Shown piece by piece: positions 5,836-32,000 of a stretch of DNA of 32,000 nucleotides (position 1 is the stretch's first letter; each line of letters starts with the position of its first letter). The notes beneath the pieces are model-generated. The model saw only the letters and a program-made list of their open reading frames with translations, ran no database searches and had not been told where the DNA came from. The DNA is from Kineococcus radiotolerans SRS30216 = ATCC BAA-149 (lineage in GTDB: Bacteria; Actinomycetota; Actinomycetes; Actinomycetales; Kineococcaceae): the NCBI RefSeq assembly GCF_000017305.1, contig NC_009664.2, positions 270,001 through 302,000 on the forward strand. The letters are read 5' to 3'. Position numbers and translations under genes: made by a program.

Positions 5836-5982
5836 GCACGGACTCCCCGCCCGGGGACGGGGCCGCGGTGCTGCCTGGCCCCATCACACCCTGGTTGCGC
5901 ACCGCGTCCCCTCGCACTCTCGTCCCGGAACCGCACCCCGCCCCGCGGTTCCTCCACCGCTCTCGCAGGAAGGACCACGACG

Positions 5983-11310: not shown

Positions 11311-11371
11311 CGGCGACCGGTCTCGCGATCCCGCCGGGGACCGCGGGAACCGGCGGTCGGCGCACCGGCGG

Positions 11372-11396
11372 CCGTCCACCCGGCCGGGGTGGACGG
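11372..11396. terminator. Hairpin between convergent genes (candidate bidirectional terminator)
   Basis: CCGTCCACC-cggccgg-GGTGGACGG forms a 9-bp perfect stem. Confidence 0.4.
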
Positions 11397-11418
11397 TGCG
11401 CGGCGGGGGGTTCCCCGC

Positions 11419-11892
11419 TCAGGAGGCGAGCGTGCGGCGGAGGGCCGGCCGGGACGCGGGACCCGGGGTGCGGGCCCGGCGCGCGGCCCAGGCGATGAGC
11501 GGTGAGCCGATGAGCGTGGGCAGCACCCAGGCCAGCGGGCTGGACCAGTTCACCATCGACGCCGCGGTGACGAAGGAGACGTAGGACCCGGCCGTGAGGG
11601 AGATGTGCAGGGGCAGCCACCCGGGGCGGCGGCGACGGGCGACGACCCACCCCGCGAGAGCCGCGGCCTCGGTGGCCACCGCGATGGCCACCAGACCCCA
11701 CGGGGTCGTGACGGCGGTGCCCGCCAGCACCAGCGCGGTCGACGTCATCAGCGCGACCGCCCCCTGGTAGGCGCGCCCGAGGCGCACGTGCCAGCCCCGG
11801 CGTCGGCGGGCCAGGAGCGCGGCGGCCCCGATGAGCAGGCCGGCGCACCCGGCCCCGACGTGGGCCGCCAGCAGCAGGGCGTGGACATCCAT
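11419..11892 (-). CDS. Small integral membrane protein (4 predicted TM segments), function unknown
   Basis: From the ATG at 11892 it reads MDVHALLLAAHVGAGCAGLLIGAAALLA... The RBS AAGGGAAGG lies upstream. It is divergent from the PadR gene. Confidence 0.7.
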   Translation of the reverse strand: MDVHALLLAAHVGAGCAGLLIGAAALLARRRRGWHVRLGRAYQGAVALMTSTALVLAGTAVTTPWGLVAIAVATEAAALAGWVVARRRRPGWLPLHISLTAGSYVSFVTAASMVNWSSPLAWVLPTLIGSPLIAWAARRARTPGPASRPALRRTLAS

Positions 11893-11996
11893 GACGTACC
11901 TTCCCTTGTGGACGGTGTCCTCGCAGCATCGTCCGTCCACAGTGGACTGTCAAGGGAACGGCGCCGCCGGGACGACGACGCGCACGGGGAGACGGG

Positions 11997-12575
11997 GTGG
12001 TCATGGGCGGCATCAACGCCACGGTGGGCTCGCTGCTGGGGTTCCTGCACGAGGGCCCGCAGTCGGGGTGGGACCTCATGGTGACCGCCCAGGAACGCAT
12101 CGGGGACTTCTGGTCCCTGACCCGCAGCCAGGTGTACCGGGAGCTGGCGAGCATGGCCACCGCCGGTCTCATCACCACCGACTCGACGGGACCCCGGGAC
12201 CGACGCGCCTACCGCCTCACCGACGCGGGGCGCTCGGCGTTCGCGCAGTGGCTGTCGCAACCCCCGGGCGAGGAGCAGATCCGCTACCCGCTGCTGCTGA
12301 CCCTGGCCTTCGCCCGGCACCTGCCCCCCGAGCAGCTCACCGCCTTCCTCGCCTCCCACCGCGCGCTGCACCAGTCGCGCTGGGAGGCCTACCGGGCCCA
12401 GGAACAGCGGGCACGTGCCGCCGGTGCCGGCGACGTCGACCTGGTCACCCTCGACTTCGGGTTGCGCTACGAGCGGGCCGTCCTCGACTGGTTCGACGGC
12501 CTGACCGGCACCTTCGCCACCGGTTCCCACCCCACCACGACCGGTCCGGACGATCGGGGCGGGAACCGGCCCTGA
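11997..12575 (+). CDS. PadR-family transcriptional regulator
   Basis: ..LLGFLHEGPQSGWDLMVTAQERIGDFWSLTRSQVYRELASMATAGLIT...RRAYRLTDAGRSAF..W is a PadR winged helix. A C-terminal PadR_C-like domain follows. The start could instead be the ATG at 12003. Confidence 0.9.
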   Translation: MVMGGINATVGSLLGFLHEGPQSGWDLMVTAQERIGDFWSLTRSQVYRELASMATAGLITTDSTGPRDRRAYRLTDAGRSAFAQWLSQPPGEEQIRYPLLLTLAFARHLPPEQLTAFLASHRALHQSRWEAYRAQEQRARAAGAGDVDLVTLDFGLRYERAVLDWFDGLTGTFATGSHPTTTGPDDRGGNRP

Positions 12576-12596
12576 CGGGGCGCGCGGCGCGGCGAG

Positions 12597-12629
12597 CCGG
12601 GAGCCGGCGTTCGAGACGCCGGCTCCCGG
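12597..12629. terminator. Strong bidirectional terminator hairpin between convergent genes
   Basis: CCGGGAGCCGGCG-ttcgaga-CGCCGGCTCCCGG forms a 13-bp perfect stem with a 7-nt loop. Confidence 0.6.
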
Positions 12630-12651
12630 GGGCCCGTTCAGCGGGGGAACC

Positions 12652-13521
12652 TCATCGCCGGGGGATGCTCAGCGTGAGCTGCTGGGCGCCGGTGTGCACC
12701 GCGTCCTGCACGTCGATCCGGTACAACCCCGAGGTCGGCAGCGTCACCGTCACGTCGCTCTGGTTCCGGCTCTTCGTGGTGTGCAACGGGGTCCCGTCCG
12801 GGGCGATCAGCGCGAACGTCCCCGTGGAGGAGCCGTCGAGCTGGATCCGGGCGCGCTGCCCGGCCTTCGCCTCGAAGGTGTACGCCGCGCGGTCCTGCGG
12901 GCCGACCTTCGCCGTCACCGACGCGCTGGTGCGACCGGCCGGGAAGTCGATCTTCGTGGCCTCGGCCACCACCGGCAGGTCCCCGTGCACCCCACCCCCG
13001 TTACCCGGCTCGGTCCCCGTGCTGGGCTTCGCGGGCTTGGTCGGTTTGACGGGCTTGGTGCTGGCCGGGATGGACAGGTCCAGGCGGTAGCTGGAGGGGC
13101 GGGTGGAGACGATGTCCACGTAGTAGCGCCCCGTCTCGGGCAGGCGGTAGGTGAAGTCCGACTGCCGGGAACTGTGCGCGTCGTGCACGGCCGGGCCCGA
13201 GGGCCCGACGAGGGTCCAGGTCTGGGCGGAGGTCGAGCGGGCCAGGTGGAAGCTGGCGGTCTGCCCGGCCTTGGCGTCGAAGACGTAGCGGTCGTCCTCC
13301 CCGGGACCGACCGTCCCCTTCACGCTGGCGGCGGTGGCGCCGTGGGCGAAGTGGATGACCGTGGCGGCGGGGACGCCGTGGGCGCCGGAGCCGGTACCGG
13401 TGCCGGTGACCGGGCCGGCGGCGCTGGCCACGCCGGCGCCGGCGAGCAGTGCGGCGGCGGTGAGGACACCGGCGGTGACGACCTTGCGGTGGCGGGAGAT
13501 CTGGGACAGCTGGGTGTTCAT
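12652..13521 (-). CDS. Secreted protein with two tandem homologous beta-sandwich-like (pre-peptidase C-terminal-like) domains
   Basis: It has a Sec signal peptide (MNTQLSQISRHRKVVTAGVLTAAALLAGAGVASA/AG). Two roughly 100-aa repeats share F..G.T.ASV...VGP.D...Y.F.AKAGQ......L......T..L..P.G......S.....D.T..LP..G.Y..D......SIP. A KPVKPTKPAKP linker joins them. Confidence 0.8.
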   Translation of the reverse strand: MNTQLSQISRHRKVVTAGVLTAAALLAGAGVASAAGPVTGTGTGSGAHGVPAATVIHFAHGATAASVKGTVGPGEDDRYVFDAKAGQTASFHLARSTSAQTWTLVGPSGPAVHDAHSSRQSDFTYRLPETGRYYVDIVSTRPSSYRLDLSIPASTKPVKPTKPAKPSTGTEPGNGGGVHGDLPVVAEATKIDFPAGRTSASVTAKVGPQDRAAYTFEAKAGQRARIQLDGSSTGTFALIAPDGTPLHTTKSRNQSDVTVTLPTSGLYRIDVQDAVHTGAQQLTLSIPRR

Positions 13522-14018
13522 GGTGCTCGTGCCCTTTCGAACGAGGGCGGAGGTTCGGTCGCGCTGTCTGCGTGCCCGGCTCCGTCACAGGTCAGGACGC
13601 AGCGGGTCCCGCAGCTGTTACACCGACCTCGGAACAGCACCTCGCGAGCCGCCGCCCGCGGCGGCCGACCGACGACACGCCGCATCGCAACCCGCTCACG
13701 AGCGCCGTGGTCGCGGGGCGGTCGGGCGCGGACGCCGCGGCGAACCCGTACCGGCCGGGAACCGCACGCGAAGGGGGGACCACGCGCGGCAGCACCCCCG
13801 TCGCCACGGCGAGGGGCGAGGCCGGGTGGTCCGCAGCGGCGGCAACCAGACCCCACCAGGGTCAGGCTGGAGGGCTCACCCAGCCCCCGGCCTCCGGCAG
13901 GATGCTGTTCCTGAGCAGCGGCCGCACGGAACTCGAGGATTTCTTCCGGCCCTCGAGGGGCGCCCCTCAGGACCGGCCTGCGCCGACCTGCTCCTACGTC
14001 ACCGACAGGAGTCCTCCC

Positions 14019-14996
14019 GTGTCCGGAAACCCCAGGAACATCTCCCTCGAACCCGCCGCCCAGGCGTTCGTCGACGCCACCAGCGAACCCCCCTTCCTCT
14101 ACCAGCTCGCTCCCGAGGGCGGGCGCAAGGCCGTCGACTCCGTCCAGGACGAGCCGATCGACAAGCCCGAGGTCGACGAGCAGTGGATCACCGTCGATGG
14201 CGGGCCCACCGGCAGCGTCCCGGTGCGGATCGTCAAACCCCTCGGCACCACCGGAACTGGAACCGGTGCTGCGCTGCCGGTGATCGTCTACACCCACGGC
14301 GCCGGCTGGGTCTTCGGCAACGCCCACACCCACGACCGCCTCGTGCGCGACCTCGCCGTCGGCACCGGTGCCGCCGTGGTGTTCCCCGAGTACGACCGCT
14401 CCCCCGAAGCCCGCTACCCGGTCGCCAACGAGCAGTCGTGGACGGCGCTGCAGTGGGTCGTGCGCGAGGGCGCCGCCCACGGCCTGGACGCCTCCCGCAT
14501 CGCGGTGGCCGGGGACTCCGTCGGCGGCAACATGGCCATCGCGTTGACGCTGATGGCCAAGGAACGCGGCGGGGTCGACCTGCGCGCGCAGGTGCTGTTC
14601 TACCCCGTCACCGACGCCGCCTTCGACACCCCCTCCTACCACGAGTTCGCCAACGGCTACTTCCTCACCCGCGAAGGCATGCAGTGGTTCTGGGACCAGT
14701 ACACGACCAGCGACGCCGACCGCGCGCAGATCACCGCCTCCCCCCTGCGCGCCAGCACCGGACAGCTCACCGGCCTGCCCCCCGCGCTGGTCATCACCGC
14801 CCAGGCCGACGTCCTGCGCGACGAGGGCGAGGCGTACGCGGTCAAGCTGCGCGAGGCCGGGGTCCCGGTCACCCAGGTGCGTTACCAGGGCATCGTCCAC
14901 GACTTCGTCATGGTCAACGCACTGCACCAGACCGAGGCGGCGAAGGCCGCGGTCGCGCAGGCGGTCGCCACCCTGCGCACCGCGCTGCACGGCTGA
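14019..14996 (+). CDS. Alpha/beta hydrolase, hormone-sensitive-lipase-type esterase
   Basis: The GTG at 14019 follows GACAGGAG. The sequence contains VYTHGAGWVFG (HGGG-type oxyanion motif), GDSVGGNM (nucleophile elbow), then DVLRDEG and HDF. The long N-terminal extension in the track has poor codon bias. Confidence 0.9.
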   Translation: MSGNPRNISLEPAAQAFVDATSEPPFLYQLAPEGGRKAVDSVQDEPIDKPEVDEQWITVDGGPTGSVPVRIVKPLGTTGTGTGAALPVIVYTHGAGWVFGNAHTHDRLVRDLAVGTGAAVVFPEYDRSPEARYPVANEQSWTALQWVVREGAAHGLDASRIAVAGDSVGGNMAIALTLMAKERGGVDLRAQVLFYPVTDAAFDTPSYHEFANGYFLTREGMQWFWDQYTTSDADRAQITASPLRASTGQLTGLPPALVITAQADVLRDEGEAYAVKLREAGVPVTQVRYQGIVHDFVMVNALHQTEAAKAAVAQAVATLRTALHG

Positions 14997-15054
14997 CCTG
15001 CCGGACCGGTGGCCCTGCGCCGCGACTCCCCGCCGAGAGGAACCTGACGTCCCC

Positions 15055-16239
15055 GTGCCCACGAGCACCCGAAACCCCCTCCTGCTCCGAGGGGCCGCCG
15101 TGACCGCCGTCGCGGTCCTGTCCCTGAGCGCGTGCGGCTCGTCGCCGCGGGCCGCCGCCGCGGAGGCGTCCGCGGGGCTGGACCCGGCCGCCGCGGCAGC
15201 GGGCGCCGAGGCGCGTTCCGAGGACGGTCCGGCGGCCGCCGCCGGGGCCGCGGGGCCGATCACGGTCGCCGTCGCCGGCGACGTCCACTTCGAGGGTTCC
15301 AGCGCCGCGGCGCTGGAACCCGGCGCCCTGGCGGCCGTCGCCGGGGTCCTCTCGGCCGCGGACGTCAGCGTCGTCAACCTCGAGACCGCCGTCACCGGAC
15401 GCGGCACCGCCGCCCCCAAGCGGTACACCTTCCGCGCTCCGCCGAGCGCGCTGGCGGCGCTGGAGCAGGCGGGCGTGGACGTGGCGGCCATGGCCAACAA
15501 CCACAGCCTCGACTACGGCCCGGTGGGCCTGCGCGACACCCTGGCCGCCAGCCGGACCGAGGGGCTGCCGGTCATCGGCGTCGGGGAGGACGCCGACGCC
15601 GCGTACGCCCCGTGGACGACGACGGTGCGCGGGCACGACCTCGCCGTCTTCAACGCCACCCAGGTCCTCGACGCCTCCCTGGCCACGGCGTGGACGGCCA
15701 CCACCGCGCAGGGGGGCGTGGCGTCGGTGAAGACCGACGCGGGCCGCCGGCGGTTGCTGACCGGGGTGCACGAGGCCCACGAGCGCGGCGCCTCGGTGGT
15801 GGTGGTCCTGCACTGGGGGGCCGAGCGCACCTCCTGCCCCTCCCCGGCGCAGGAGTCGCTGGCCGACGACCTCGTCGCCGCCGGCGCGGACGCCGTCGTG
15901 GGCTCGCACGCCCACCAGCTGCTGGGGGCGGGCTGGAAGCGGGCCGGTGGGCGCAGCGGGTACGTGGACTACGGGCTGGGCAACTTCGTCTTCTACGCCC
16001 GCGGCGGGGTCGCGGCCCGCACCGGGGTGCTGACCCTGACCCTTCCCGGCCGGACGACGCCGGCGCCGGCGGGGACGGGGGCCGCGGCCGGTGGCCGGGC
16101 CGCGCCCGGGGCCCGGTGGCAGCCGGCGGCCATCCGCTCCGGGGTACCGGTGCCGCTGACCGGCGCCGCCGCCGAGGGAGCGGTCGCGGAGAAGGACGCC
16201 CTGCGTTCGTGCACCGACCTCGGCGCCCGCCCCTCGTGA
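15055..16239 (+). CDS. CapA-family (poly-gamma-glutamate capsule synthesis-like metallophosphatase) lipoprotein
   Basis: The lipobox is LSLSAC. Other motifs are ..VAVAGDVHFE.., VVNLETA, ANNHSLDYG, LHWGAE and GSHAHQ. Confidence 0.9.
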   Translation: MPTSTRNPLLLRGAAVTAVAVLSLSACGSSPRAAAAEASAGLDPAAAAAGAEARSEDGPAAAAGAAGPITVAVAGDVHFEGSSAAALEPGALAAVAGVLSAADVSVVNLETAVTGRGTAAPKRYTFRAPPSALAALEQAGVDVAAMANNHSLDYGPVGLRDTLAASRTEGLPVIGVGEDADAAYAPWTTTVRGHDLAVFNATQVLDASLATAWTATTAQGGVASVKTDAGRRRLLTGVHEAHERGASVVVVLHWGAERTSCPSPAQESLADDLVAAGADAVVGSHAHQLLGAGWKRAGGRSGYVDYGLGNFVFYARGGVAARTGVLTLTLPGRTTPAPAGTGAAAGGRAAPGARWQPAAIRSGVPVPLTGAAAEGAVAEKDALRSCTDLGARPS

Positions 16240-16303
16240 CCGCGCCCGGGGCTGGGCGGGGAACAAGCCCCCGGGGTCGCGCGTTGCGATCGACGTCAGG
16301 TAG

Positions 16304-16315
16304 TTGAGACTTCAA
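16304..16315. promoter_or_regulatory. AT-richest spot of the window, with imperfect palindrome TTGAGACTTCAA, 23 nt upstream of the LLM start
   Basis: GTAGTTGAGACTTCAAATACACGAG is a local GC trough in a roughly 74% GC background. It is a candidate promoter or operator. No clear TANNNT box is visible. Confidence 0.25.
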
Positions 16316-16337
16316 ATACACGAGTCAGGAGCACACC

Positions 16338-17480
16338 ATGCAGTTCGGGGTCTTCAGCGTCGGGGACGTCACCCTCGACCCCACCACCGGGCGGGTGCCC
16401 ACCGAGAACGAGCGCATCAAGGCGCAGGTCGCCATCGCCCGCAAGGTCGAGGAGGTCGGCCTGGACGTCTACGCCACCGGCGAGCACCACAACCCGCCCT
16501 TCGTCCCCTCCTCGCCCACGACCCTGCTCGGCTTCATCGCCGCCGCCACGCAGCGCATCGTCCTCTCCACCGCCACCACGCTGATCACGACCAACGACCC
16601 GGTCAAGATCGCCGAGGACTACGCGATGCTGCAGCACCTGGCCGACGGGCGCGTCGACCTGACCCTGGGCCGCGGCAACACCGGCCCGGTCTACCCCTGG
16701 TTCGGCAAGGACATCCGCGAGGGCCTCGCCCTGGCGGTGGAGAACTACGACCTGCTGCGCCGGCTGTGGCGCGAGGACGTCGTCGACTGGCAGGGGAGGT
16801 TCCGCACCCCCCTGCAGTCCTTCACCGCCACCCCTCGTCCCCTCGACGGCGTGGCCCCCTTCGTGTGGCACGGTTCCATCCGAACCCCCGAGATCGCCGA
16901 GCAGGCCGCGTACTACGGCGACGGCTTCTTCCACAACAACATCTTCTGGCCCACCACCCACACGCAGCAGATGGTGCAGCGCTACCGCCAGCGCTTCGAG
17001 CACTACGGCCACGGCCCCGCCGACACCGCCATCGTCGGCCTGGGGGGTCAGTTCTTCGCCCGCAAGAACTCCCAGGACGCTGTGAAGGAGTTCCGCCCCT
17101 ACTTCGACGTCGCCCCCGTCTACGGCCACGGCCCCTCCCTGGAGGAGTTCACCGCCCAGACCCCGCTGACCGTGGGCAGCCCGCAGCAGGTCGTCGAGCG
17201 CTACGCGTCCATGCGCGAGCACGTCGGGGACTACCAGCGCCAGCTGTTCCTCATCGACCACGCCGGTCTGCCGCTCTCCACGGTCCTGGAGCAGATCGAG
17301 ATCCTCGGCGGGGACATCGTGCCGGCCCTGCGGAAGGAGATGGCGATCGGGCGCCCGGCGCACGTGCCGGACGCCCCCACCCACGCCTCCCTGGTCGCCG
17401 CCGCCGGCGGCGCCCACGACGGCACCGTCCACGCCGTGGACGACGTCACCGGGCGGCGCGCCGAAGAGGCCCACGCGTGA
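16338..17480 (+). CDS. LLM-class (luciferase-like) FMN-dependent monooxygenase
   Basis: MQFGVFSVGDVT.DPTTG...ERI......A...EEVGLDV...[13 protein letters not shown] is a typical luciferase-like N-terminus. As I recall, this is the CE1758-type family that partners with an FMN reductase. Confidence 0.9.
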   Translation: MQFGVFSVGDVTLDPTTGRVPTENERIKAQVAIARKVEEVGLDVYATGEHHNPPFVPSSPTTLLGFIAAATQRIVLSTATTLITTNDPVKIAEDYAMLQHLADGRVDLTLGRGNTGPVYPWFGKDIREGLALAVENYDLLRRLWREDVVDWQGRFRTPLQSFTATPRPLDGVAPFVWHGSIRTPEIAEQAAYYGDGFFHNNIFWPTTHTQQMVQRYRQRFEHYGHGPADTAIVGLGGQFFARKNSQDAVKEFRPYFDVAPVYGHGPSLEEFTAQTPLTVGSPQQVVERYASMREHVGDYQRQLFLIDHAGLPLSTVLEQIEILGGDIVPALRKEMAIGRPAHVPDAPTHASLVAAAGGAHDGTVHAVDDVTGRRAEEAHA

Positions 17481-25277: not shown

Positions 25278-26285
25278 TCACGGGGCGGGAACGACCGGCG
25301 GTGACAGGACCGCCGCCCCCGGGCGCACCGCGGCCACGGCCACCGCGGTCGCGGCGGCGACGAGGGCGTCGTCGTGGTCGGCGTCCTCGGCGTCGCGGTC
25401 GGACATGACGACCAGGACGAGCGGAGCGCCGGCGGGGGGCCACACCACGGCGACGGCGTTGCGGGTGCCGTACCCCCCGGCGCCCGTCCGGTCCCCCACG
25501 ACCCACCCCTCGGGCACACCGGCGCGGATCAGCGCGTCCCCGGTGGTGTTGGCGCGCATCCAGCCGACCAGCACCGCGCGGTCCTCCTCCCCCAGCGCGT
25601 CCCCGAGGGCGTAGGCGTGCAGGTCGGTGGCCATCGCCCGGGGGGTGCTGGTGTCGCGGACGTCACCGGGAGCGGCCTCGTTGAGCGCGGTCTCCGTGCG
25701 CTCGGGATCGGTGACCGTGTCGCCGAGCTCCCGCAGCGCGGACTCGAAGCCGCCGGGACCACCGAGGTGCTCGAGGAGGAGGTTGGCCGCGGTGTTGTCG
25801 CTGACCGTCGTGGCGGCGGCGGCGAGGTCGCGCAGGCTCATCCCGGCGCCGACGTGCAGCTCGGTGACGGGCGAGTGGTCCACGAGGTCCTCGGCGGTGA
25901 AGGGGACGACCTCGTCGAGCTCCTCGGCGCTCGTGCGGTCCAGGACCGCGGCGGCGGCGAGGACCTTGAAGGTGGAGGCGTACGCGAACCGCTCGTCGGC
26001 GCGGTGGACGACGCTCGCCCCGGTGCCCGTGTCGAGCGCGAACACGCCGAGGCGGGCGTCGAACTCCCGCTCCAGCCGGGCGAGCTGCGCGGCCACGTCC
26101 GGTGCCGCCGCCGGGGGCGGGGCGCCGGGCGTCACCGCCGGACCCGTCACCGCCGGACCCGTCACCGCGGGACCCGTCACCGCGGGAGCGGGCGCGGTGC
26201 CCCCACCGCCGCAGGCCACCAGGACGGGCAGGACGAGCGCGCCGACGATCGCGGCGGGAACGCTCCGGCGCCGGTGCTGCCTCAT
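25278..26285 (-). CDS. Class A beta-lactamase, predicted lipoprotein
   Basis: From the ATG at 26285 it reads [25 protein letters not shown] (lipobox LVAC). The class A motifs are ASTFK (S70xxK), SDN, ETALNEA (E166..N170) and RTG in place of KTG. Confidence 0.9.
26131..26190. repeat. 4 x 15-bp tandem repeat inside the beta-lactamase gene, encoding the (PAVTG)n linker after the lipobox
   Basis: The units are GTCACCGCCGGACCC x2, GTCACCGCGGGACCC and GTCACCGCGGGAGCG, read directly from the sequence. Confidence 0.9.
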
Positions 26286-26535
26286 GCCCGTGGTCCCCCC
26301 CTCGACGTGTCCCCGCCGCGGGAGCCGGCGGTGGGGCCATTCGAGCAGGTGTCCCGCCCGGGGTGCTCCAGGGCGCGCCGCCGGGAGGCCGCGACGGCTC
26401 AAGGCCCCCTGCGCCGCGACCGACAACACGGGTGGATCGAACCACCGGTCCAGTCTCAGCGGAGGCCACGGTCGCCCGGTGAGGACGCCGCGCGGAGGCC
26501 CGCCCGGTGCTGGCGACGTCCAGGGGAGCACCACG

Positions 26536-28089
26536 ATGCCGTTCCGCGCCGTCCGCCGCGCGCAGGAGGAGGCTGCCGCGACCACCGCGGAGTCCCGCGC
26601 CAACATCGCCGCCATCGGCGCGGTCATCACCGCCCTCGGCGCCGCCACGACCTCCACCCAGGCCGTCGAGATCGCCCTGGACGAGGTGCGCGCGCGCTTC
26701 GGCTGGGCCTACGCCTCGTACTGGAAGCTGGACCCCGCCGCCGGGGTCCTGCGTTTCCAGCAGGAGTCCGGCGACGCGGGCGAGGAGTTCCGCCGCGTCA
26801 CCCTGGCCGCCTCCTTCGCCGAGGGCGTCGGCCTCTCGGGGCGGGCCTGGCGCACCCGCGACCTGGTCTTCGTCCCCGACCTGGCCGAGGTGGCCGACTG
26901 CGTGCGCGCCCCCGCCGCCCAGCGCGTCGGGGTCAAGTCCGGCATCTGCTTCCCGCTCCTCGCGGACGGGCGCGTGGTCGGCACGATGGACTTCTTCACC
27001 ACCGAGACCCTCGACCCCTCGCCGGAACGCCTGGACACCCTGCGCGCCATCGGCGCGCTGGTCTCCCAGGCCCGCGAGCGGATCGCCGCGACCGAACGCA
27101 CCACCGCCTCCGTCCAGGACGCCGAGGCCCTGGCCGTCGTCCTGCAGGAGGTCTCCACCGCCGCCACCCGCACCGAGGCGCTGGGGCGCGCCCTGGACGC
27201 CATCCGCACCGGCTTCGGCTGGGCGTACGCCTCGTACTGGAAGCTGGACCCCGCCGCCGGGGTCCTGCGCTTCCAGCAGGAGTCCGGCGACGCGGGCGAG
27301 GAGTTCCGCCGCGTCACCCTGGCCGCCTCCTTCGCCGAGGGCGTCGGCCTCTCGGGGCGGGCCTGGCGCACCCGCGACCTGGTCTTCGTCCCCGACCTGG
27401 CCGAGGTGGCCGACTGCGTGCGCGCCCCCGCCGCCCAGCGCGTCGGGGTGAAGTCCGGCATCTGCTTCCCCGTCCTGGTCTCCGGCCAGGTCGTGGGGAC
27501 CATGGACTTCTTCGCCACCACCACCCTGGTCCTGTCCGACTCGCGGGAGCACGCGCTGCGCAACACCGCCCTGCTCCTGGGCCAGGCCCTGGAACGCTTC
27601 GGCTCGGCCGACAAGCTGGCCAGCGCCGGGCAGGAACTGGTCGCCTCCATCGGCGAGGTCGAGCGCAACGTCGTCTCCGCCACCTCGGTGGTGGCCCGCG
27701 GTCAGGAACTGACCCAGGAGGCCAACCGGCGCGTGAGCGAGCTCGGGGAGTCCTCCAGCCGGATCAGCGCGGTGGTCAAGACGATCCAGGCCATCGCCGC
27801 GCAGACCAACCTGCTCGCGCTGAACGCCACCATCGAGGCCGCCCGGGCCGGCGAGACCGGCCGCGGCTTCGCGGTGGTGGCCGACGAGGTCAAGGAACTG
27901 GCGATGGAGACGGCCACCGCGACCAAGGACGTCGACGAGCGGGTCCGGGCCATCCAGGAGCAGGTGGAGCACGTCGTCGGCGCGCTGGGGCAGATCAGCG
28001 AGGTCGTGGAGGAGATCGACCGCACCCAGGCCGTGATCAGCGGCGTGCTGACCGAGCAGACGGCCGTCACCCGCGCCATCCTGGGCTGA
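26536..28089 (+). CDS. Soluble GAF-GAF-MCP-signalling-domain protein (cytoplasmic chemoreceptor-like)
   Basis: The ATG at 26536 has GGGGAG 7 nt upstream. There are no TM segments and no HAMP domain. Two GAF domains are followed by a short MA domain containing [37 protein letters not shown]. It is the in-frame tail of track ORF 25627..28089. Confidence 0.9.
26698..26954 (+). repeat. Copy A of the 257-bp near-identical intragenic direct repeat (core of GAF domain 1)
   Basis: 254 of 257 nt are identical to 27214-27470 at an offset of 516 bp (172 codons). The 3 differences are all synonymous third-position changes. Confidence 0.95.
27214..27470 (+). repeat. Copy B of the 257-bp near-identical intragenic direct repeat (core of GAF domain 2)
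   Basis: See copy A. The flanking parts of the two GAF domains are clearly diverged. Confidence 0.95.
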
Positions 28090-28394
28090 CCCCGGACCAC
28101 CGCCGCGACGGCGCGGCGAGGGGCCCGCGGCACCTCCGCGACACCGCCGCGACAGGCTCGCGACGTGCCCGGGACGCGGGCACCCCGTCGGCTACGGTGG
28201 CCCCCTCTCCGAAGGGATCCCCGGCATGTCCTCCAGCGCCACCGCCCCCACCGCCGCGCGCGTCGCTCCCCCGCCGCGGCGTCGCGGCGGTCCGCCGGGA
28301 CCCCCCGCCGAGCCGGCCACCGCCGCGCACCCCTGACCCGCCCCCGCACGGTCCTCCCCACGGCCTCCTCCCCCGCAGCCCAGGAGCTCGCACG

Positions 28395-30044
28395 ATGCGC
28401 CCCACCCCCTGGACCGTCCGCCCCGTCCCCACCGTCTGGCTGGACGCCACCACCGGTCAGGGCGTCACCGACTCCGGCGCTCGCGTCACCCCCCGGCTCA
28501 CCGGCCGCCGGAAGCGGCCCACGCTGGTGGACCTGCTGGACACCGCCCACAACCTCTCCGCCGAGCGCATCATGCTCACCGGCAAGCTCCCCACCGCCGA
28601 ACCCGGCCGCCCGCACTGGCTCATCGCCGAGACCCCCTCGTGGACCTCCCCGGGGCACTGGCTCGGCTCCCCGCCCACCGGGCGCTTCACCCACGACGTC
28701 ACCGGCCGCCACCTGGAGGTCCGCACCGCCGCGGAGTGGTTCCCCGTCGAGGGCCTCACCCCCGACCAGGCCCGGCAGGCGTGGGTGACGACCACCGAGG
28801 CGGTCAAGGGGGTGGAAGACATGGAGCTGCTGAAGTCCCCCGCCGCGACCGGCGCGCAACTGTGGGCCCGTTCCCTGCCCCGCACCCTCGACCCCGAACC
28901 GCTGCCCGACGACGTCGCCGAACTGCTGCACCGCACCTCGGGGCAGCACCGCATCGAGCACCTCACCACCGGACCCGCCGCCTGCGGGTGCGGGGCGTGC
29001 CGGCCGCTGGTGGACCTGGGGGCGACCCCCCGCGGGGGGTTCGCCTACGTCGACGGGCGGTTCATGTACGCCTCGCTGTGCCGCGAGCTGGGCAGCGGGC
29101 CGGTCACCCGCCTCACCGCCGCCCAGGGCCAGGAGCTGCTGGAGACCGACCCCTACGCCCGGGCCCGGTACCGGGTCCGCTTCACCGTCCCGGAGTGGTG
29201 GGACCACGTCGGGGTCCTGCCCGTCGCGCACGAGACCGTCGACGCCGGCTGGCACTACCCCAACGTGCCCGGCGCGAGCGCGGAGACGTGGGCCGACGGG
29301 GTCGAGGCGAAGATCGCCCACGACAACGGCTGGGACGTGCAGGTCCTGGAGGGCCTGCGGTTCACCAGGGGCCGACTGCTGGACACCTGGGCGGACCGCC
29401 TCAAGCGGGCCCGCGAGCGCCTGGCCGGCCACGCCGAGCTGGACCCGGTGGTGCGCTCGGCGGCCGTGGCCGCGGTCCGCGGCATCCTCATCCAGGGCAT
29501 CGGCGCGTTCGCCTCCCGGGGCCGGGAGACGACGCGGGTGGTGTGGTCGGCGCGCGAGGTCCCCCCGGAGGCGGCGTCGACGGTGGTGCGGCACGGGGAG
29601 GCGTTCGTGTACCGCCTCCCCAGCCGGCAGCCCGGCGGGCAGGCCGCGGCCCTGTACCGCCCGGAACTGGCCGCGCAGGTGTGGGCGCGCGGCCGGGCCC
29701 GGGTGCTGGAGTGCCCCGCGGCCCTCCCCCACCGCCCGGGGGCGCCGCGCCCGGTGGTGGGGGCGCTGCAGGTGGACCCCGCGCAGCTGCTGGCCGTCAA
29801 CGGCGACGCGATCTACACCACCGCCGTGCCCGCGTGGTCGCTGCCCACCGCCCACGGCGGCGGCGACGACGGCGCCGTGGGGCGGATGCGCCTGCAGGGG
29901 TGGCTGGGCTCGGTGAAGCTGCCCGCCACCGCCGCCGAGCGCAACGCGCTGCGGGGGAAGGCGGAGGCCGCGGGGATCGCGGAGGCCCTGGCGGCCGCGG
30001 GCGCGCCGCAGGCCGGCCCGGAGCAGGAGCGGGCGCGTGCCTGA
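28395..30044 (+). CDS. Hypothetical 549-aa protein; by-eye homologue of phi29-type (protein-primed) family B DNA polymerases with substituted catalytic motifs
   Basis: The ATG at 28395 has AGGAG 8 nt upstream. GC3 is about the host level. Motif-like strings occur in PolB order: VWLDATT, AHNLSAERIML, FAYVDGRFMYASL, EGLRFTRGRLLDTWADRL, AVRGILIQGIGAFAS, QVWARGR and LAVNGDAIYT. The confidence value refers to this being a real CDS; I would put the functional call at about 0.45. Confidence 0.8.
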   Translation: MRPTPWTVRPVPTVWLDATTGQGVTDSGARVTPRLTGRRKRPTLVDLLDTAHNLSAERIMLTGKLPTAEPGRPHWLIAETPSWTSPGHWLGSPPTGRFTHDVTGRHLEVRTAAEWFPVEGLTPDQARQAWVTTTEAVKGVEDMELLKSPAATGAQLWARSLPRTLDPEPLPDDVAELLHRTSGQHRIEHLTTGPAACGCGACRPLVDLGATPRGGFAYVDGRFMYASLCRELGSGPVTRLTAAQGQELLETDPYARARYRVRFTVPEWWDHVGVLPVAHETVDAGWHYPNVPGASAETWADGVEAKIAHDNGWDVQVLEGLRFTRGRLLDTWADRLKRARERLAGHAELDPVVRSAAVAAVRGILIQGIGAFASRGRETTRVVWSAREVPPEAASTVVRHGEAFVYRLPSRQPGGQAAALYRPELAAQVWARGRARVLECPAALPHRPGAPRPVVGALQVDPAQLLAVNGDAIYTTAVPAWSLPTAHGGGDDGAVGRMRLQGWLGSVKLPATAAERNALRGKAEAAGIAEALAAAGAPQAGPEQERARA

Positions 30045-30774
30045 GGATCCCCCCGCCCCCCGCAGCGCGGCGGACCTCGTCGCCGAGCTGCGCGCCTACG
30101 GCATGAGCGTGGCCGAGATCGCCCACGAGCTGCAGCGTTCCCCGCGGATGGTGCACAAGATCGTCCGGGGGGAGAGCAGCGGCCGGCTGTACGTGCCGAC
30201 GCTGACCGAGCTGGTGGAGACCGGGCAGGCCCGCAGCCGCCCCCCGCGCCGCCGCGGCCGCGACGGCGAACCGGTCCGCGTGCGGGCGCCCCGCGGCGCG
30301 GCAGCGCCGACGCGGGTGCCCGACGTCGACGACGAGCAGCCCGCCCCCGCCGGGGCCGGTCCCGCGGCGAGCCCCGGGGCGGGCCGCTCCGCGGGGGGAC
30401 GCAGCCGGTTCAGCGACAGCACCGCCTACCTGCCCGGCGGGGTCCGTCAGCACACCGTCACCGGGCCCCGTTCGGAGGGGCCGGGGCGCGAGCGGACCCG
30501 CCAGCGCCTCATGGACGTGCTGCGCGGCGCCGCGCGCGGTCAGCGCCACGGCCGCAAGAACGTCCGGTTCCGGGTCACCCTGCGCGACGGGACGTCGGTG
30601 GAGGTCGGGTCCAAGGGCGGGTACTCGGTGTCGGCCGCCCTGGCCCGTTCGCGCGGTGAGGGCGACGACCCGCTGCGCTGGCTGCGCGAGGAGATCGCCG
30701 AGCGCAGCTACGTGCAGGCGCAGCTGCGGGCGAAGCAGCTGGACATCGTGGGCGTGGAGGCGACGATCTTCTGA
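30037..30774 (+). CDS. Hypothetical 245-aa protein with an N-terminal HTH, an Arg/Pro/Gly-rich linker and a C-terminal domain
   Basis: The GTG at 30037 overlaps the upstream stop by 8 nt (GTGCCTGA). GC3 is above 90%. The HTH-like segment is DLVAELRAYGMSVAEIAHELQRSPRMVHKIV. The C-terminus is KNVRFRVTLRDGTSVEVGSKGGYSVSAALARS...DIVGVEATIF. Confidence 0.7.
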   Translation: MPEDPPAPRSAADLVAELRAYGMSVAEIAHELQRSPRMVHKIVRGESSGRLYVPTLTELVETGQARSRPPRRRGRDGEPVRVRAPRGAAAPTRVPDVDDEQPAPAGAGPAASPGAGRSAGGRSRFSDSTAYLPGGVRQHTVTGPRSEGPGRERTRQRLMDVLRGAARGQRHGRKNVRFRVTLRDGTSVEVGSKGGYSVSAALARSRGEGDDPLRWLREEIAERSYVQAQLRAKQLDIVGVEATIF

Positions 30775-31365: not shown

Positions 31366-31400
31366 GCCGACGGGCCGGGCCCCGCGCTCAGCCCGTCGGC
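31366..31400. terminator. Hairpin between convergent genes, overlapping the doc-like stop codon
   Basis: GCCGACGGGC pairs with GCCCGTCGGC across 15 nt, giving a 10-bp perfect stem. Confidence 0.4.
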
Positions 31401-31813
31401 GGCAGCGGGCCCCGCCAGGGCTCGCCCAGGGTGATCTGGCGCAGGTGCAGGGCGATGACGTCGACGTCGTCGAGGCCGTTCTCGACCAGCCCCACCAGCC
31501 GCTGCCCGTACTCCGCGTCCGGCTGCACCGTCCTGACCCCGTTGCGGTCCAGCGCGGCCAGGGCCACGAACAACCCGATGCCGGGGTTGAGGGCACCCGC
31601 GAAGGGTCGCGTCGTCACGATGGCGTGCATGAGGGCCGCCGCCTGCTCGTGCTCCCCGCGGTAGATCCGCTCGCCGTCGACGTCCAGGGAGGGCCGCAGC
31701 GCCGCGGCGGCCAGGGCTCCCACGTCGCGGATCACGACGGGTCCCTCCGCCAGCCAGTCCGCCAGCTCGCTGATCTGCGCGACGCTCAGGAAACGGGGGT
31801 GCTCCGGGATCAC
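31388..31813 (-). CDS. Doc/Fic-family (death-on-curing-like) toxin homologue with a degenerate Fic motif
   Basis: ..FLSVAQISELA......AAALMHAIVTTRPFAGALNPGIGLFVALAALDRNGV.. is colinear with P1 Doc (..HIFNDANKRTALNSALLFLRRNGV..). I prefer the GTG at 31813 (GTGA overlap with the antitoxin stop) over the track start at 31834. Confidence 0.75.
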   Translation of the reverse strand: MIPEHPRFLSVAQISELADWLAEGPVVIRDVGALAAAALRPSLDVDGERIYRGEHEQAAALMHAIVTTRPFAGALNPGIGLFVALAALDRNGVRTVQPDAEYGQRLVGLVENGLDDVDVIALHLRQITLGEPWRGPLPPTG

Positions 31814-32000
31814 CGGGAGCGCAGCGCTTCCCACAGGGTGGGGTTGCTGGCCGCGATGCGCTCGGCGATCGTCGCGATCGCCTCCTCCTGCGCGCGGGCG
31901 GACTGCTCCAGCAGCGCCTCGAAGAGCTTCTGCCGCGAGACCCCGGGGTTGCGGCGCCGCAGGTCCTCCAGCATGCGCTCGTGGTCCCCGGAGAGGCGGA
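31810..32000 (-). CDS. Ribbon-helix-helix-type antitoxin (5' end outside the window)
   Basis: I translated the minus strand by hand: ..LSGDHERMLEDLRRRNPGVSRQKLFEALLEQSARAQEEAIATIAERIAASNPTLWEALRSR*. This is an RHH-like strand-helix-helix followed by a tail. The stop overlaps the doc-like start. Confidence 0.6.
   Translation of the reverse strand, partial: RLSGDHERMLEDLRRRNPGVSRQKLFEALLEQSARAQEEAIATIAERIAASNPTLWEALRSR

What the first reader, a model, noticed from the sequence alone, without database searches (positions are those of the whole stretch)
28395..30044. Orphan phi29-like (protein-primed-type) family B DNA polymerase homologue with substituted exonuclease and polymerase catalytic residues
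The ORF is 549 aa with host-like codon bias. Read by eye against my recollection of phi29 DNAP (575 aa), it is colinear across the whole enzyme:
- VWLDATT (res 14-20) vs CDFETT (ExoI, DxE)
- AHNLSAERIML (51-61) vs FHNLKFDGAFI (ExoII)
- SPAATGAQLWARSL vs TAGSDSLKGFKDII
- FAYVDGRFMYASL (215-227) vs MVFDVNSLYPAQM (motif A, DxxSLYPS)
- YRVRFTVPEWWDHVGVLPV vs IRCEFELKEGYIPTIQI
- EGLRFTRGRLLDTWADRL vs SGLKFKATTGLFKDFIDKW
- AVRGILIQGIGAFAS (360-374) vs AKLMLNSLYGKFAS (motif B, KxxxNSxYG)
- AAQVWARGR vs FITAWARYT
- LAVNGDAIYT (466-475) vs IIYCDTDSIHL (motif C)

The motif A Asp and one motif C Asp are kept. The ExoI Glu, the ExoII Asp, the motif B Lys/Asn/Tyr and the second motif C Asp are replaced. 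The thumb/KxY region is shortened to an Ala-rich tail.

So this is either an extremely divergent polymerase or a catalytically remodelled or inactivated PolB that has been exapted. It sits in a normal-composition chromosomal context, with no phage, plasmid, integrase or Cas1 genes in view. It is therefore not an obvious pipolin, casposon or prophage. I am not aware of a described bacterial system built on such a protein.
Basis: partly seen in the sequence, partly recalled or inferred. Interest (0 to 1): 0.85.

Follow-up and report, generated by a model that had tools for sequence, protein, structure and literature searches.

The report
Telomere end-patching polymerase, phi29-like fold
The ORF is a real, very divergent phi29-type DNA polymerase that is paired with a terminal-protein gene, and it is most likely the Tac-Tpc-type machinery that completes the ends of the linear Kineococcus chromosome, a known kind of system that had not been recognised in this organism.

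Summary
The 549-aa ORF (28395-30044, +) is real and 99% identical to a Kineococcus radiotolerans hypothetical protein.

Its AlphaFold model (pLDDT 95.5) matches phi29 DNA polymerase over its full length (Foldseek E=4.6e-13). After that it matches only other family B, mostly protein-primed, polymerases.

The protein is not an orphan and probably not inactive:
- The motif A Asp and Tyr, the catalytic motif C Asp, a motif B Arg and Gly, and the WAR motif are invariant or nearly so in 126 homologues. Only the exonuclease carboxylates are lost.
- An overlapping downstream gene (30037-30774) encodes an HTH protein with a basic cluster. It sits immediately downstream in almost all related loci with enough DNA.
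- Homologous pairs lie on linear plasmids, including pSCO2 and pFRL3. The literature assigns these SCP1-type telomeres, and says that pSCO2 carries tac-tpc.
- Micrococcus plasmids that carry the pair begin G7-8CAG, like pSCO2 (G6CAG).

K. radiotolerans has a linear chromosome whose telomere proteins were reported as unknown.

Best reading: this is a Tac-Tpc-type protein-primed end-patching module, a new member of a known kind. I could not compare it with the SCP1 Tac sequence itself.

The parts
28382..28386 (+). Shine-Dalgarno-like AGGAG, 8 nt upstream of the ATG of the polymerase gene
   Evidence: Read directly from the sequence. The N-terminus MRPxPW matches the family consensus.
28395..30044 (+). 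tac-like gene: a 549-aa divergent protein-primed-type family B DNA polymerase. It has an exonuclease-like N-terminal domain that lacks the catalytic carboxylates. Palm motif A is D220/Y225, the motif B helix carries R362 and G370, 'WAR' is at 430-432, motif C is D471, and a conserved DDGxxGRxRL lies at 491-500.
   Evidence: GC3 0.98. AF2 pLDDT 95.5. Foldseek top hits are phi29 DNAP and viral protein-primed polymerases. Residue conservation in 126 homologues. hhalign register. Homologues on linear plasmids, including pSCO2 and pFRL3.
30037..30774 (+). tpc-like gene: a 245-aa candidate terminal protein. Its GTG start overlaps the polymerase stop by 8 nt. It has an N-terminal HTH (residues about 11-43), a central basic cluster PPRRRGRDGEPVRVR (residues 68-83), and a C-terminal alpha/beta domain.
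   Evidence: GC3 0.95. Weak HTH_38 hit, E=0.0038. Co-conserved immediately downstream on the same strand in nearly all related loci. Aligns with the downstream proteins of pSCO2, pFRL3 and pKVP2, with R71/R72/G77/V82/R83 conserved. The motif resembles the ARVRRR and RRRKKWT clusters reported for SCP1 Tpc (PMC2425503).

Best explanation
The two overlapping genes at 28395-30774 are most likely the telomere end-patching module of the linear K. radiotolerans chromosome. They would be a distant (about 30% identity) member of the Tac-Tpc system first described on Streptomyces plasmid SCP1.

Inferred mechanism, by homology:
1. Bidirectional replication from the central origin leaves 3' single-stranded overhangs at both chromosome ends.
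2. The 245-aa HTH protein (Tpc-like terminal protein) binds the 549-aa polymerase (Tac-like).
3. The polymerase uses its two-metal site (D220 and D471) and the 3' end of the overhang as template to attach the first nucleotide to a hydroxyl side chain of the terminal protein. That nucleotide is probably dGMP, because related replicons begin with G6-8CAG.
4. The polymerase extends a short oligonucleotide.
5. [quoted passage not shown]

The exonuclease-like domain has lost its catalytic residues and probably survives as a structural or terminal-protein-binding module.

Shown here: the fold, the conservation of catalytic residues, the gene pairing, the association with linear replicons, and the G-run termini in relatives. 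Inferred: the activity, the nucleotide used, and the role at the Kineococcus chromosome ends.
For: - Fold. AF2 pLDDT 95.5. phi29 DNAP is the top seven PDB hits, best E=4.6e-13, full length. There are 41 viral hits at E<=1e-3, nearly all DNA polymerases, led by ones from protein-primed groups.
- Active site. D220, R362, G370, D471, W430 and R434 are 126/126. Y225 is 125/126. hhalign aligns D220/Y225 with phi29 D249/Y254 and N469/D471 with D456/D458.
- Pairing. A Tpc-like ORF lies immediately downstream on the same strand in nearly all of about 60 loci with enough DNA. tblastn finds the same pairing on plasmids.
- Linear replicons. Homologues sit on pLMV7, pLMA7, pJD12, pCSL1, Cutibacterium plasmids, pKVP2, pRVR1, pFRL3, pFRL6 and pSCO2.
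- Link to Tac-Tpc. PMC8743542 lists SCP1, pSCO2 and pFRL3 as the SCP1-type telomeres and says pSCO2 carries tac and tpc. PMC7188733 reports tac-tpc in K. viridifaciens DSM 40239, whose pKVP2 carries the pair.
- Termini. pSCO2 begins GGGGGGCAG, pLMV7 (CTA)GGGGGGGGCAG, and pJD12 (C)GGGGGGGCAG, followed by palindromes with 4-nt loops. This matches the SCP1-class description (bioRxiv 10.1101/2025.10.14.682034).
- Biochemistry of the family. Tac alone deoxynucleotidylates Tpc with dGTP and extends a short oligomer (PMC4513846).
- Host. The K. radiotolerans chromosome is linear by Southern blot, and no telomere proteins were known for it (PMC2587704).
- Position. In another K. radiotolerans assembly the gene lies about 267 kb from one end of a 2.36-Mb contig.
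Against: - I could not obtain the SCP1 Tac and Tpc sequences. SCP1 is not in the plasmid collection, and no SCP1 protein was recognisable among the listed hits of the protein searches. Membership therefore rests on pSCO2, pFRL3 and pKVP2 plus published statements and two short published Tpc peptides.
- The K. radiotolerans telomere sequences and any bound protein were not available.
- The Kineococcus protein lacks the roughly 170-aa N-terminal extension of the Streptomyces proteins.
- Two Kineococcus species show no tpc-like ORF within 4 kb of tac.
- Sequence-profile evidence for PolB is sub-threshold.
- No activity was measured.
Confidence: 0.78

Rival explanations
1. A catalytically dead PolB that has been exapted, for example as a telomere-binding or scaffolding protein, with another polymerase doing the chemistry.
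For: The exonuclease carboxylates are lost. The motif B Asn and Tyr and the first motif C Asp are not conserved. The Pfam score is below threshold. Earlier models for Streptomyces assigned catalysis to DinB1 or DinB2 (PMC4513846, introduction).
Against: Both metal-binding Asp positions, the motif A Tyr, the motif B Arg and Gly, and the WAR motif are invariant or nearly so across 126 sequences at about 30% identity. Tac alone sufficed for Tpc-primed synthesis in vitro (PMC4513846).
Confidence: 0.06
2. A remnant of an integrated linear plasmid or similar mobile element. It would be intact but not responsible for the chromosome ends, which some other unknown system would maintain.
For: Most relatives are plasmid-borne. 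A Doc-like toxin lies just downstream. The ORFs flanking the pair downstream are specific to K. radiotolerans.
Against: Composition and codon bias are host-like. No conjugation, partition or integrase genes flank it. The pair is conserved in several Kineococcus species. The genome paper found no other telomere system (PMC2587704). K. viridifaciens is reported to rely on a single tac-tpc copy for more than one replicon (PMC7188733).
Confidence: 0.1
3. A full replicative protein-primed polymerase that copies a replicon from its ends by strand displacement, as in phi29, adenovirus and tectiviruses, rather than a short-patch enzyme.
For: The full-length phi29-like architecture. Some family members are fused to primase-helicase modules: D5_N, Toprim and DnaB-N. 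dnaB lies next to tac on some Streptomyces plasmids.
Against: The loss of proofreading residues argues against copying megabases. Bagwell et al. place dnaA (Krad0001) near the centre of the chromosome, as in Streptomyces and Borrelia, which replicate bidirectionally from a central origin (PMC2587704). Tac extended only a short oligomer in vitro (PMC4513846).
Confidence: 0.04
4. A primer-independent PolB (piPolB, pipolin) or a casposon PolB.
For: These are also divergent relatives of protein-primed PolBs found in bacterial genomes (own knowledge).
Against: There is no integrase, Cas1 or flanking repeat context. The exonuclease motifs, which those families retain (own knowledge), are degenerate here. 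The protein is strictly paired with an HTH terminal-protein-like gene on linear replicons.
Confidence: 0.02

Closest known systems
Tac-Tpc telomere system of Streptomyces coelicolor plasmid SCP1 (Huang et al. 2007; Yang et al. 2015, PMC4513846)
   Same: - A two-gene operon with the polymerase-like gene upstream and a roughly 200-260-aa terminal protein downstream.
- The terminal protein has an N-terminal HTH and a central basic cluster.
- Hosts are linear actinobacterial replicons.
- Relatives carry telomeres that start with a G-run followed by palindromes with 4-nt loops.
- Homologous (29-34% identity, E down to 1e-37) to the pairs on pSCO2, pFRL3 and pKVP2.
   Different: - Chromosomal, and in Kineococcus (Kineosporiales) rather than on a Streptomyces plasmid.
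- 549 aa, without the roughly 170-aa N-terminal extension of the Streptomyces proteins.
- No upstream small DNA-binding gene or dnaB.
- No direct comparison with SCP1 Tac was possible.
- The 2015 paper reported no polymerase motif in Tac, whereas this family folds as a phi29-like PolB.
phi29 DNA polymerase and other protein-primed family B polymerases (Pfam PF03175: phi29, GA-1, PRD1, adenovirus, His1)
   Same: - Full-length structural match: exonuclease-like domain, palm, TPR1-like region, fingers and thumb.
- Motif A Asp and Tyr, the motif C catalytic Asp and the Tx2GR-like WAR motif are conserved.
- The gene is adjacent to a terminal-protein gene.
   Different: - About 10% identity, and below the Pfam threshold.
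- The exonuclease catalytic residues are lost.
- Motif B is RxxxxxxxG instead of KxxxNSxYG, and the first motif C Asp is absent.
- It is cellular (chromosome or plasmid), not viral.
- It is expected to make only a short patch.
- Gene order is polymerase then terminal protein. The phage loci read here have the terminal protein upstream.
pAL1.101 and pAL1.102 of the Arthrobacter linear plasmid pAL1 (Kolkenbrock et al. 2010, J Bacteriol 192:4935; abstract recalled from own knowledge, paper not held)
   Same: - A telomere-associated protein followed by an HTH terminal-protein gene at a plasmid end.
- Its C-terminal segment was reported to carry partial family B motifs.
- A local match to the Tac-family HMM at residues 1523-1577 (22.5 bits).
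- Comparable long fusions exist within the family.
   Different: - pAL1.101 is 1707 aa and multidomain, with Toprim and helicase parts.
- It matches only over about 55 residues.
- pAL1.102 does not match the Tpc-like HMM.
- The pAL1 terminal protein is labelled with dCMP (PMC3572947), and the right end of the pAL1 record starts with C on its 5' strand.
Tap-Tpg (archetypal Streptomyces telomere system) and GtpB-GtpA of S. griseus
   Same: The same logic: a telomere-associated protein and a terminal protein in one operon, performing protein-primed end patching.
   Different: The literature reports no sequence similarity between the classes (PMC4513846; bioRxiv 10.1101/2024.11.13.623437). Tap has been described as a primase (title of PMC5449611). 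K. radiotolerans has no orthologues of the Streptomyces terminal proteins (PMC2587704).

Membership tests
Family B DNA polymerase, protein-primed type (PF03175 DNA_pol_B_2) | Overall PolB fold with the phi29-like domain order | tested here: met
   Foldseek: the top 7 PDB hits are phi29 DNAP, E=4.6e-13, about 590 columns. There are 41 BFVD hits at E<=1e-3, nearly all DNA polymerases, led by ones from protein-primed groups. Model pLDDT is 95.5.
Family B DNA polymerase, protein-primed type (PF03175 DNA_pol_B_2) | Score above the Pfam gathering threshold | tested here: not met
   13.6 bits against a cut-off of 25.8, E=0.031, residues 259-342 only. Weak hits recur in 9/20 and 5/14 homologues, best E=4e-4.
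Family B DNA polymerase, protein-primed type (PF03175 DNA_pol_B_2) | Motif A (DxxSLYPS): metal-binding Asp and steric-gate Tyr | tested here: met
   D220 is 126/126 and Y225 is 125/126. hhalign aligns them with phi29 D249 and Y254.
Family B DNA polymerase, protein-primed type (PF03175 DNA_pol_B_2) | Motif B (KxxxNSxYG) | tested here: inconclusive
   R362 and G370 are invariant with the same 8-residue spacing as phi29 K383 and G391. The Asn and Tyr positions are hydrophobic. The hhalign register is off by one from this spacing.
Family B DNA polymerase, protein-primed type (PF03175 DNA_pol_B_2) | Motif C (YxDTDS): two Asp | tested here: inconclusive
   D471 (126/126) aligns with phi29 D458. Position 469, which aligns with D456, is variable: N55, R36, A16.
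Family B DNA polymerase, protein-primed type (PF03175 DNA_pol_B_2) | 3'-5' exonuclease motifs ExoI, ExoII and ExoIII carboxylates | tested here: not met
   Only D17 is partly kept (103/126). The ExoI Glu position is variable. The ExoII-like 'HNL' occurs in Kineococcus only. There is no YxxxD.
Family B DNA polymerase, protein-primed type (PF03175 DNA_pol_B_2) | TPR1 and TPR2 insertions specific to protein-primed PolBs | tested here: inconclusive
   The only Pfam-detectable stretch (residues 259-342) lies between motifs A and B, where phi29 TPR1 lies (own knowledge). The full-length match to phi29 is consistent with this. I could not inspect a residue-level superposition.
Tac-Tpc (SCP1-type) telomere system | Sequence homology to SCP1 Tac (CAC36646.1) | not testable with these tools
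   SCP1 is absent from the plasmid collection and was not recognisable among the listed hits of the protein searches. Indirect evidence: tblastn E=3e-28 to pSCO2 and E=3e-30 to pFRL3, which PMC8743542 lists as the other two SCP1-type telomeres.
Tac-Tpc (SCP1-type) telomere system | The terminal-protein gene lies directly downstream in the same operon | tested here: met
   8-nt overlap in the window. The Tpc-like ORF is immediately downstream in nearly all related loci.
Tac-Tpc (SCP1-type) telomere system | The terminal protein has an N-terminal HTH and a central basic bipartite cluster (ARVRRR ... RRRKKWT in Tpc) | tested here: met
   HTH at residues about 11-43. RRRGRDGEPVRVR at residues 70-83. 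The family consensus is RRRTxxGxxARVRxK, followed in Streptomyces members by a (K/E)xW(T/S/N) motif. The Tpc peptides are from PMC2425503 and the architecture from PMC3572947.
Tac-Tpc (SCP1-type) telomere system | The host replicon is linear, with a protein-capped telomere that starts with a G-run | tested here: inconclusive
   The K. radiotolerans chromosome is linear (PMC2587704), but its termini were not available. Relatives: pSCO2 G6CAG, pLMV7 G8CAG, pJD12 G7CAG. Micrococcus plasmids carry 5'-bound proteins (PMC11707576).
Tac-Tpc (SCP1-type) telomere system | Deoxynucleotidylation of the terminal protein by the Tac-like protein | not testable with these tools
   Biochemistry is needed. It has been shown for SCP1 Tac and Tpc (PMC4513846).
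piPolB / pipolin or casposon PolB | Integrase or Cas1 context with intact exonuclease motifs | tested here: not met
   No such genes in the 32 kb. The exonuclease motifs are degenerate.

The most novel reading that the evidence does not exclude
The Tac family, described in 2015 as a new class of DNA polymerase without any polymerase motif, is in fact an old, exonuclease-dead clade of phi29-like protein-primed family B polymerases. This clade would be spread across Actinomycetota, in Kineococcus chromosomes and in Micrococcales, Propionibacteriales and Streptomyces linear plasmids, sometimes fused to primase-helicase modules. On this reading, end patching of SCP1-type bacterial telomeres and viral protein-primed replication share one enzymatic origin, and the long-missing telomere proteins of K. 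radiotolerans, Micrococcus pLM plasmids, pCSL1 and Cutibacterium acnes linear plasmids are this pair. The held literature does not state this explicitly. One 2024 preprint only remarks in passing that 'a specialized B-family polymerase' does the job.
Probability: 0.45. Interest if true: 0.65.

Novelty: new member of a known kind. Interest (0 to 1): 0.5.

Why it matters
- It gives K. radiotolerans a concrete, testable telomere machinery. [quoted passage not shown]
- It supplies candidate terminal proteins and priming polymerases for Micrococcus, Clavibacter, Curtobacterium and Cutibacterium linear plasmids. A 2025 study still reported no terminal-protein gene on the Micrococcus plasmids it analysed (PMC11707576).
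- It assigns the Tac family to the family B fold with identifiable catalytic residues (D220 and D471 here). Mutational tests become straightforward, and bacterial chromosome-end patching is linked to phage and adenovirus-type protein priming.
- It does not reveal a new kind of system.

Tried and rejected
- NCBIfam, PHROGs and PADLOC gave nothing for the polymerase.
- phmmer and hmmsearch of the protein and of the 126-sequence profile against PDB sequences found no polymerase.
- hhalign of the 20-sequence profile against a phi29-like profile was not significant, and its one local alignment was in the wrong register. The 126-sequence profile gave only E=0.096, although in the correct register.
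- SCP1 (NC_003903) and pKRAD01 (NC_009806, CP000751) are not in the plasmid collection.
- Two further protein searches seeded from Streptomyces members listed no recognisable SCP1 protein. All hits are named 'hypothetical' or 'Mucin-19'.
- Supplement look-ups for tac locus tags or Tpc primers were empty.
- The Kolkenbrock 2010 paper is not held.
- The genome scan with the full alignment failed because it had no conserved stretch. The successful scan did not return K. radiotolerans itself, so I could not fix the distance to the chromosome end in the type strain.
- Promoter and terminator scans found nothing.
- The ends of pFRL3, pKVP2, pCSL1, the left end of pJD12 and the C. acnes plasmid, as deposited, do not start with a G-run. 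These records may lack the true termini.
- Considered and rejected: pipolin, casposon, prophage and defence-system readings. There is no supporting context.
Full report
**1. Observation**

The ORF at 28395-30044 (+) encodes 549 aa. An AGGAG lies 8 nt upstream of the ATG. GC by codon position is 0.77/0.58/0.98, a clear coding signature in this 75% GC window. The protein is 99% identical to a Kineococcus radiotolerans hypothetical protein. More than 250 homologues were found, all unnamed and without Pfam domains.

Sequence methods barely see a polymerase:
- Pfam gives only DNA_pol_B_2 at E=0.031 (13.6 bits, cut-off 25.8) over residues 259-342.
- NCBIfam gives nothing.
- PDB sequence searches give nothing relevant.

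The same weak PF03175 hit recurs in 9 of 20 Micrococcales-type and 5 of 14 Streptomyces-type homologues, and no other family recurs.

**2. Fold**

An AlphaFold2 model built on a 126-sequence alignment is very confident (pLDDT 95.5, pTM 0.92).
- Foldseek against the PDB returns phi29 DNA polymerase as the seven best hits (best E=4.6e-13, TM 0.52, about 590 aligned columns, 10% identity). Archaeal, pol epsilon, poxvirus, RB69 and herpesvirus family B polymerases follow.
- Against predicted viral structures, 41 hits reach E<=1e-3. Nearly all are DNA polymerases, led by ones from groups known for protein-primed replication: tectiviruses, GA-1, His1, adintoviruses, bidnaviruses and adenoviruses.

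**3. Catalytic residues**

I verified my recalled phi29 sequence as 100% identical to V01155.1. I built a small profile of phage protein-primed polymerases and compared profiles.

The 126-sequence family profile aligns 261 columns at E=0.096 in a register that makes sense:
- D220 and Y225 align with D249 and Y254 (motif A).
- The motif B helices overlap.
- N469-G-D471 aligns with D456-T-D458 (motif C).

Conservation across the 126 homologues:

| Position | Conservation |
|---|---|
| D220, R362, G370, W430, R434, D471 | 126/126 |
| Y225, D491, R499 | 125/126 |
| R432 | 124/126 |
| D492 | 122/126 |
| 469 | variable |

R362 and G370 have the same spacing as phi29 K383 and G391.

In the N-terminal domain only D17 is fairly conserved (103/126). 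The ExoI Glu position is variable. The 'AHNL' that looked like ExoII is confined to Kineococcus.

The polymerase site therefore looks intact, and the exonuclease site looks dead.
- The retained motif C Asp is the metal-binding one.
- The motif B Lys appears to be conservatively replaced by Arg.
- The ExoII match was chance.

**4. Not an orphan**

A 245-aa ORF (30037-30774) starts 8 nt before the polymerase stop. It has GC3 0.95, a weak N-terminal HTH signal, and a central basic cluster.

tblastn against plasmids finds both genes side by side on Micrococcus, Clavibacter, Curtobacterium, Microbacterium and Glutamicibacter plasmids. HMMs of both proteins run over 73 loci show the second gene immediately downstream on the same strand in nearly all loci with enough DNA. 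The exceptions are Kineococcus gypseus and Kineococcus sp. DK005 (none found within 4 kb) and DK025 (found upstream).

The ORFs further downstream in the window are specific to K. radiotolerans. The conserved unit is therefore the pair.

**5. Where the pair lives**

Plasmid hits include:
- replicons deposited as linear: pLMV7, pJD12, pKVP2, pRVR1, pFRL3, pFRL6 and others;
- replicons known from the literature or my own knowledge to be linear: pCSL1 and the C. acnes HL096PA1 plasmid (own knowledge).

A scan of one genome per species finds the gene in Kineococcus, Oerskovia, Promicromonospora, Isoptericola, Microbacterium, Curtobacterium, Plantibacter, Arthrobacter, Kocuria, Rothia, Micrococcus, Brachybacterium, Nesterenkonia, Microlunatus, Nakamurella, Aeromicrobium and Cutibacterium. 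Most hits are on contigs of 5-250 kb.

An exhaustive profile search counts 751 clusters (at 50% identity) with E<=1e-3 and 565 with E<=1e-30.

**6. Link to the known Tac-Tpc system**

- PMC8743542 lists exactly three SCP1-type telomeres (SCP1, pSCO2, pFRL3) and states that SCP1 and pSCO2 carry tac and tpc.
- pSCO2 (19 kb) and pFRL3 both carry a homologue of the window protein (E=3e-28 and 3e-30), followed by a 199-243-aa protein.
- PMC7188733 reports tac-tpc in K. viridifaciens DSM 40239. That strain's linear pKVP2 carries the pair.
- The downstream proteins of all these replicons align with the window's 245-aa protein.
- They share an N-terminal HTH and a conserved RRR..G..(A)RVR cluster. In Streptomyces members a (K/E)xW(T/S) motif follows.
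- SCP1 Tpc is described as having an N-terminal HTH and a central bipartite signal made of ARVRRR and RRRKKWT (PMC2425503, PMC3572947).
- The deposited left end of pSCO2 reads GGGGGGCAG. pLMV7 reads (CTA)GGGGGGGGCAG. The right end of pJD12 reads (C)GGGGGGGCAG and is followed by palindromes with 4-nt loops. This is the published signature of SCP1-class telomeres (bioRxiv 10.1101/2025.10.14.682034).

I could not obtain SCP1 Tac itself. That is the main remaining gap.

**7. Host and context**

K. radiotolerans has a 4.76-Mb linear chromosome, confirmed by Southern blot, and a linear plasmid. Its genome paper found no ResT and no orthologues of the Streptomyces terminal proteins, and concluded that unique mechanisms must protect the ends (PMC2587704).

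The window otherwise holds ordinary accessory genes:
- MmyB-like and PadR regulators, oxidoreductases and hydrolases;
- LtrA, a GGDEF-EAL protein and a MarR regulator;
- a luciferase-like monooxygenase, a class A beta-lactamase and a GAF-GAF-MCP protein.

No mobile-element genes are present. In another K. radiotolerans assembly the gene lies about 267 kb into a 2.36-Mb contig. That would fit the sub-terminal position typical of telomere genes if the contig starts at a chromosome end, which I could not check.

**8. Mechanism**

This is inferred from Tac-Tpc biochemistry (PMC4513846) and from the phi29 paradigm.
1. The polymerase and the terminal protein form a complex on the 3' overhang left by bidirectional replication.
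2. The D220/D471 metal site links the first nucleotide, probably dGMP, to a hydroxyl residue of the terminal protein.
3. A short oligomer is made.
4. A host polymerase completes the fill-in.

The dead exonuclease domain fits an enzyme that makes only a few nucleotides. Fusions of the domain to D5-type primase-helicase, Toprim or DnaB-N modules in other members support a replication role. So does dnaB lying next to tac on Streptomyces plasmids.

pAL1.101, the 1707-aa 'telomere-associated protein' of Arthrobacter plasmid pAL1, matches the family HMM only locally, at residues 1523-1577 with 22.5 bits.

**9. Novelty**

The kind of system is known. Three points appear not to be stated in the held literature:
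- This family has a phi29-like family B fold with identifiable catalytic residues. The 2015 paper said no polymerase motif exists. A 2024 preprint mentions 'a specialized B-family polymerase' only in passing.
- K. radiotolerans encodes the pair.
- Micrococcus, Clavibacter, Curtobacterium and Cutibacterium linear plasmids encode it. PMC11707576 found no terminal-protein gene on the Micrococcus plasmids it analysed.

I rate the finding as a new member of a known kind, of moderate interest.

Noticed in passing
window 31388-31834 (-) and about 31810-32000 (-): A Doc-like toxin (phrog_577, E=6e-7) with a small upstream ORF that may be its antitoxin lies just downstream of the tac-tpc pair. The small ORF runs to the edge of the window.
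   Followed up: partly
L016 (Kineococcus gypseus) 5654-6480; L017; L018: In K. gypseus the tac-like gene is followed by what looks, by eye, like a VapB/VapC pair, not by a tpc-like gene. No tpc-like ORF was found within 4 kb in K. gypseus or Kineococcus sp. DK005. In DK025 it lies upstream. Where these species keep their terminal-protein gene is unexplained.
   Followed up: partly
P0375, P0376, P0402, P0428, P0429: Some family members are 940-1543-aa fusions with the Tac-like polymerase domain at the C-terminus. Their N-terminal parts carry D5_N/DUF5906/Pox_D5 primase-helicase, DUF3854, DnaB-N or Toprim domains. This resembles the architecture reported for pAL1.101.
   Followed up: partly
L087 (pAL1) 10982-16741: pAL1.101 (1707 aa) matches the Tac-family HMM only at residues 1523-1577 (22.5 bits). 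The pAL1.102 terminal protein does not match the Tpc-like HMM. The right end of the pAL1 record starts with C on its 5' strand, not a G-run.
   Followed up: partly
window 30037-30774, residues about 123-245 of the product: A single-sequence AF2 model (pLDDT 60 overall, about 75-84 in the C-terminal half) gives weak Foldseek hits to a roughly 110-residue part of Y-family polymerases (Dpo4, Dbh, pol kappa). E is 0.014-0.05, with none at or below 1e-3. This may be just a common alpha/beta fold. It is curious because DinB polymerases take part in Streptomyces end patching.
   Followed up: no
L005-L010 (Streptomyces and Kitasatospora plasmids): The Streptomyces-type proteins are about 700-750 aa, with an extra N-terminal region of about 170 aa. 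A 180-210-aa gene, annotated 'DNA-binding protein' in pKVP2 and the K. aureofaciens plasmid, abuts or nearly abuts them upstream in five of the six loci. In pRVR1 a dnaB lies further upstream, and in the S. virginiae plasmid dnaB takes its place directly upstream of tac. One or two small ORFs separate tac from tpc in pRVR1 and the S. virginiae plasmid.
   Followed up: no
L076 1-120 (pLMV7) and L074 480-600 (pJD12, reverse strand): The deposited ends of two Micrococcus linear plasmids read G7-8CAGC, followed by GC-rich palindromes with 4-nt loops. They closely resemble the pSCO2 end (G6CAG). The 1-3 bases before the G-run may be cloning remnants.
   Followed up: partly
window about 26536-28089 (+): The GAF-GAF-MCP signalling protein contains two GAF domains that share a stretch of about 88 aa, identical in sequence, which points to a recent internal duplication.
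   Followed up: no
window about 25278-26320 (-): The class A beta-lactamase homologue carries an N-terminal run of VTGPA repeats ([25 protein letters not shown]) in its presumed signal or linker region.
   Followed up: no
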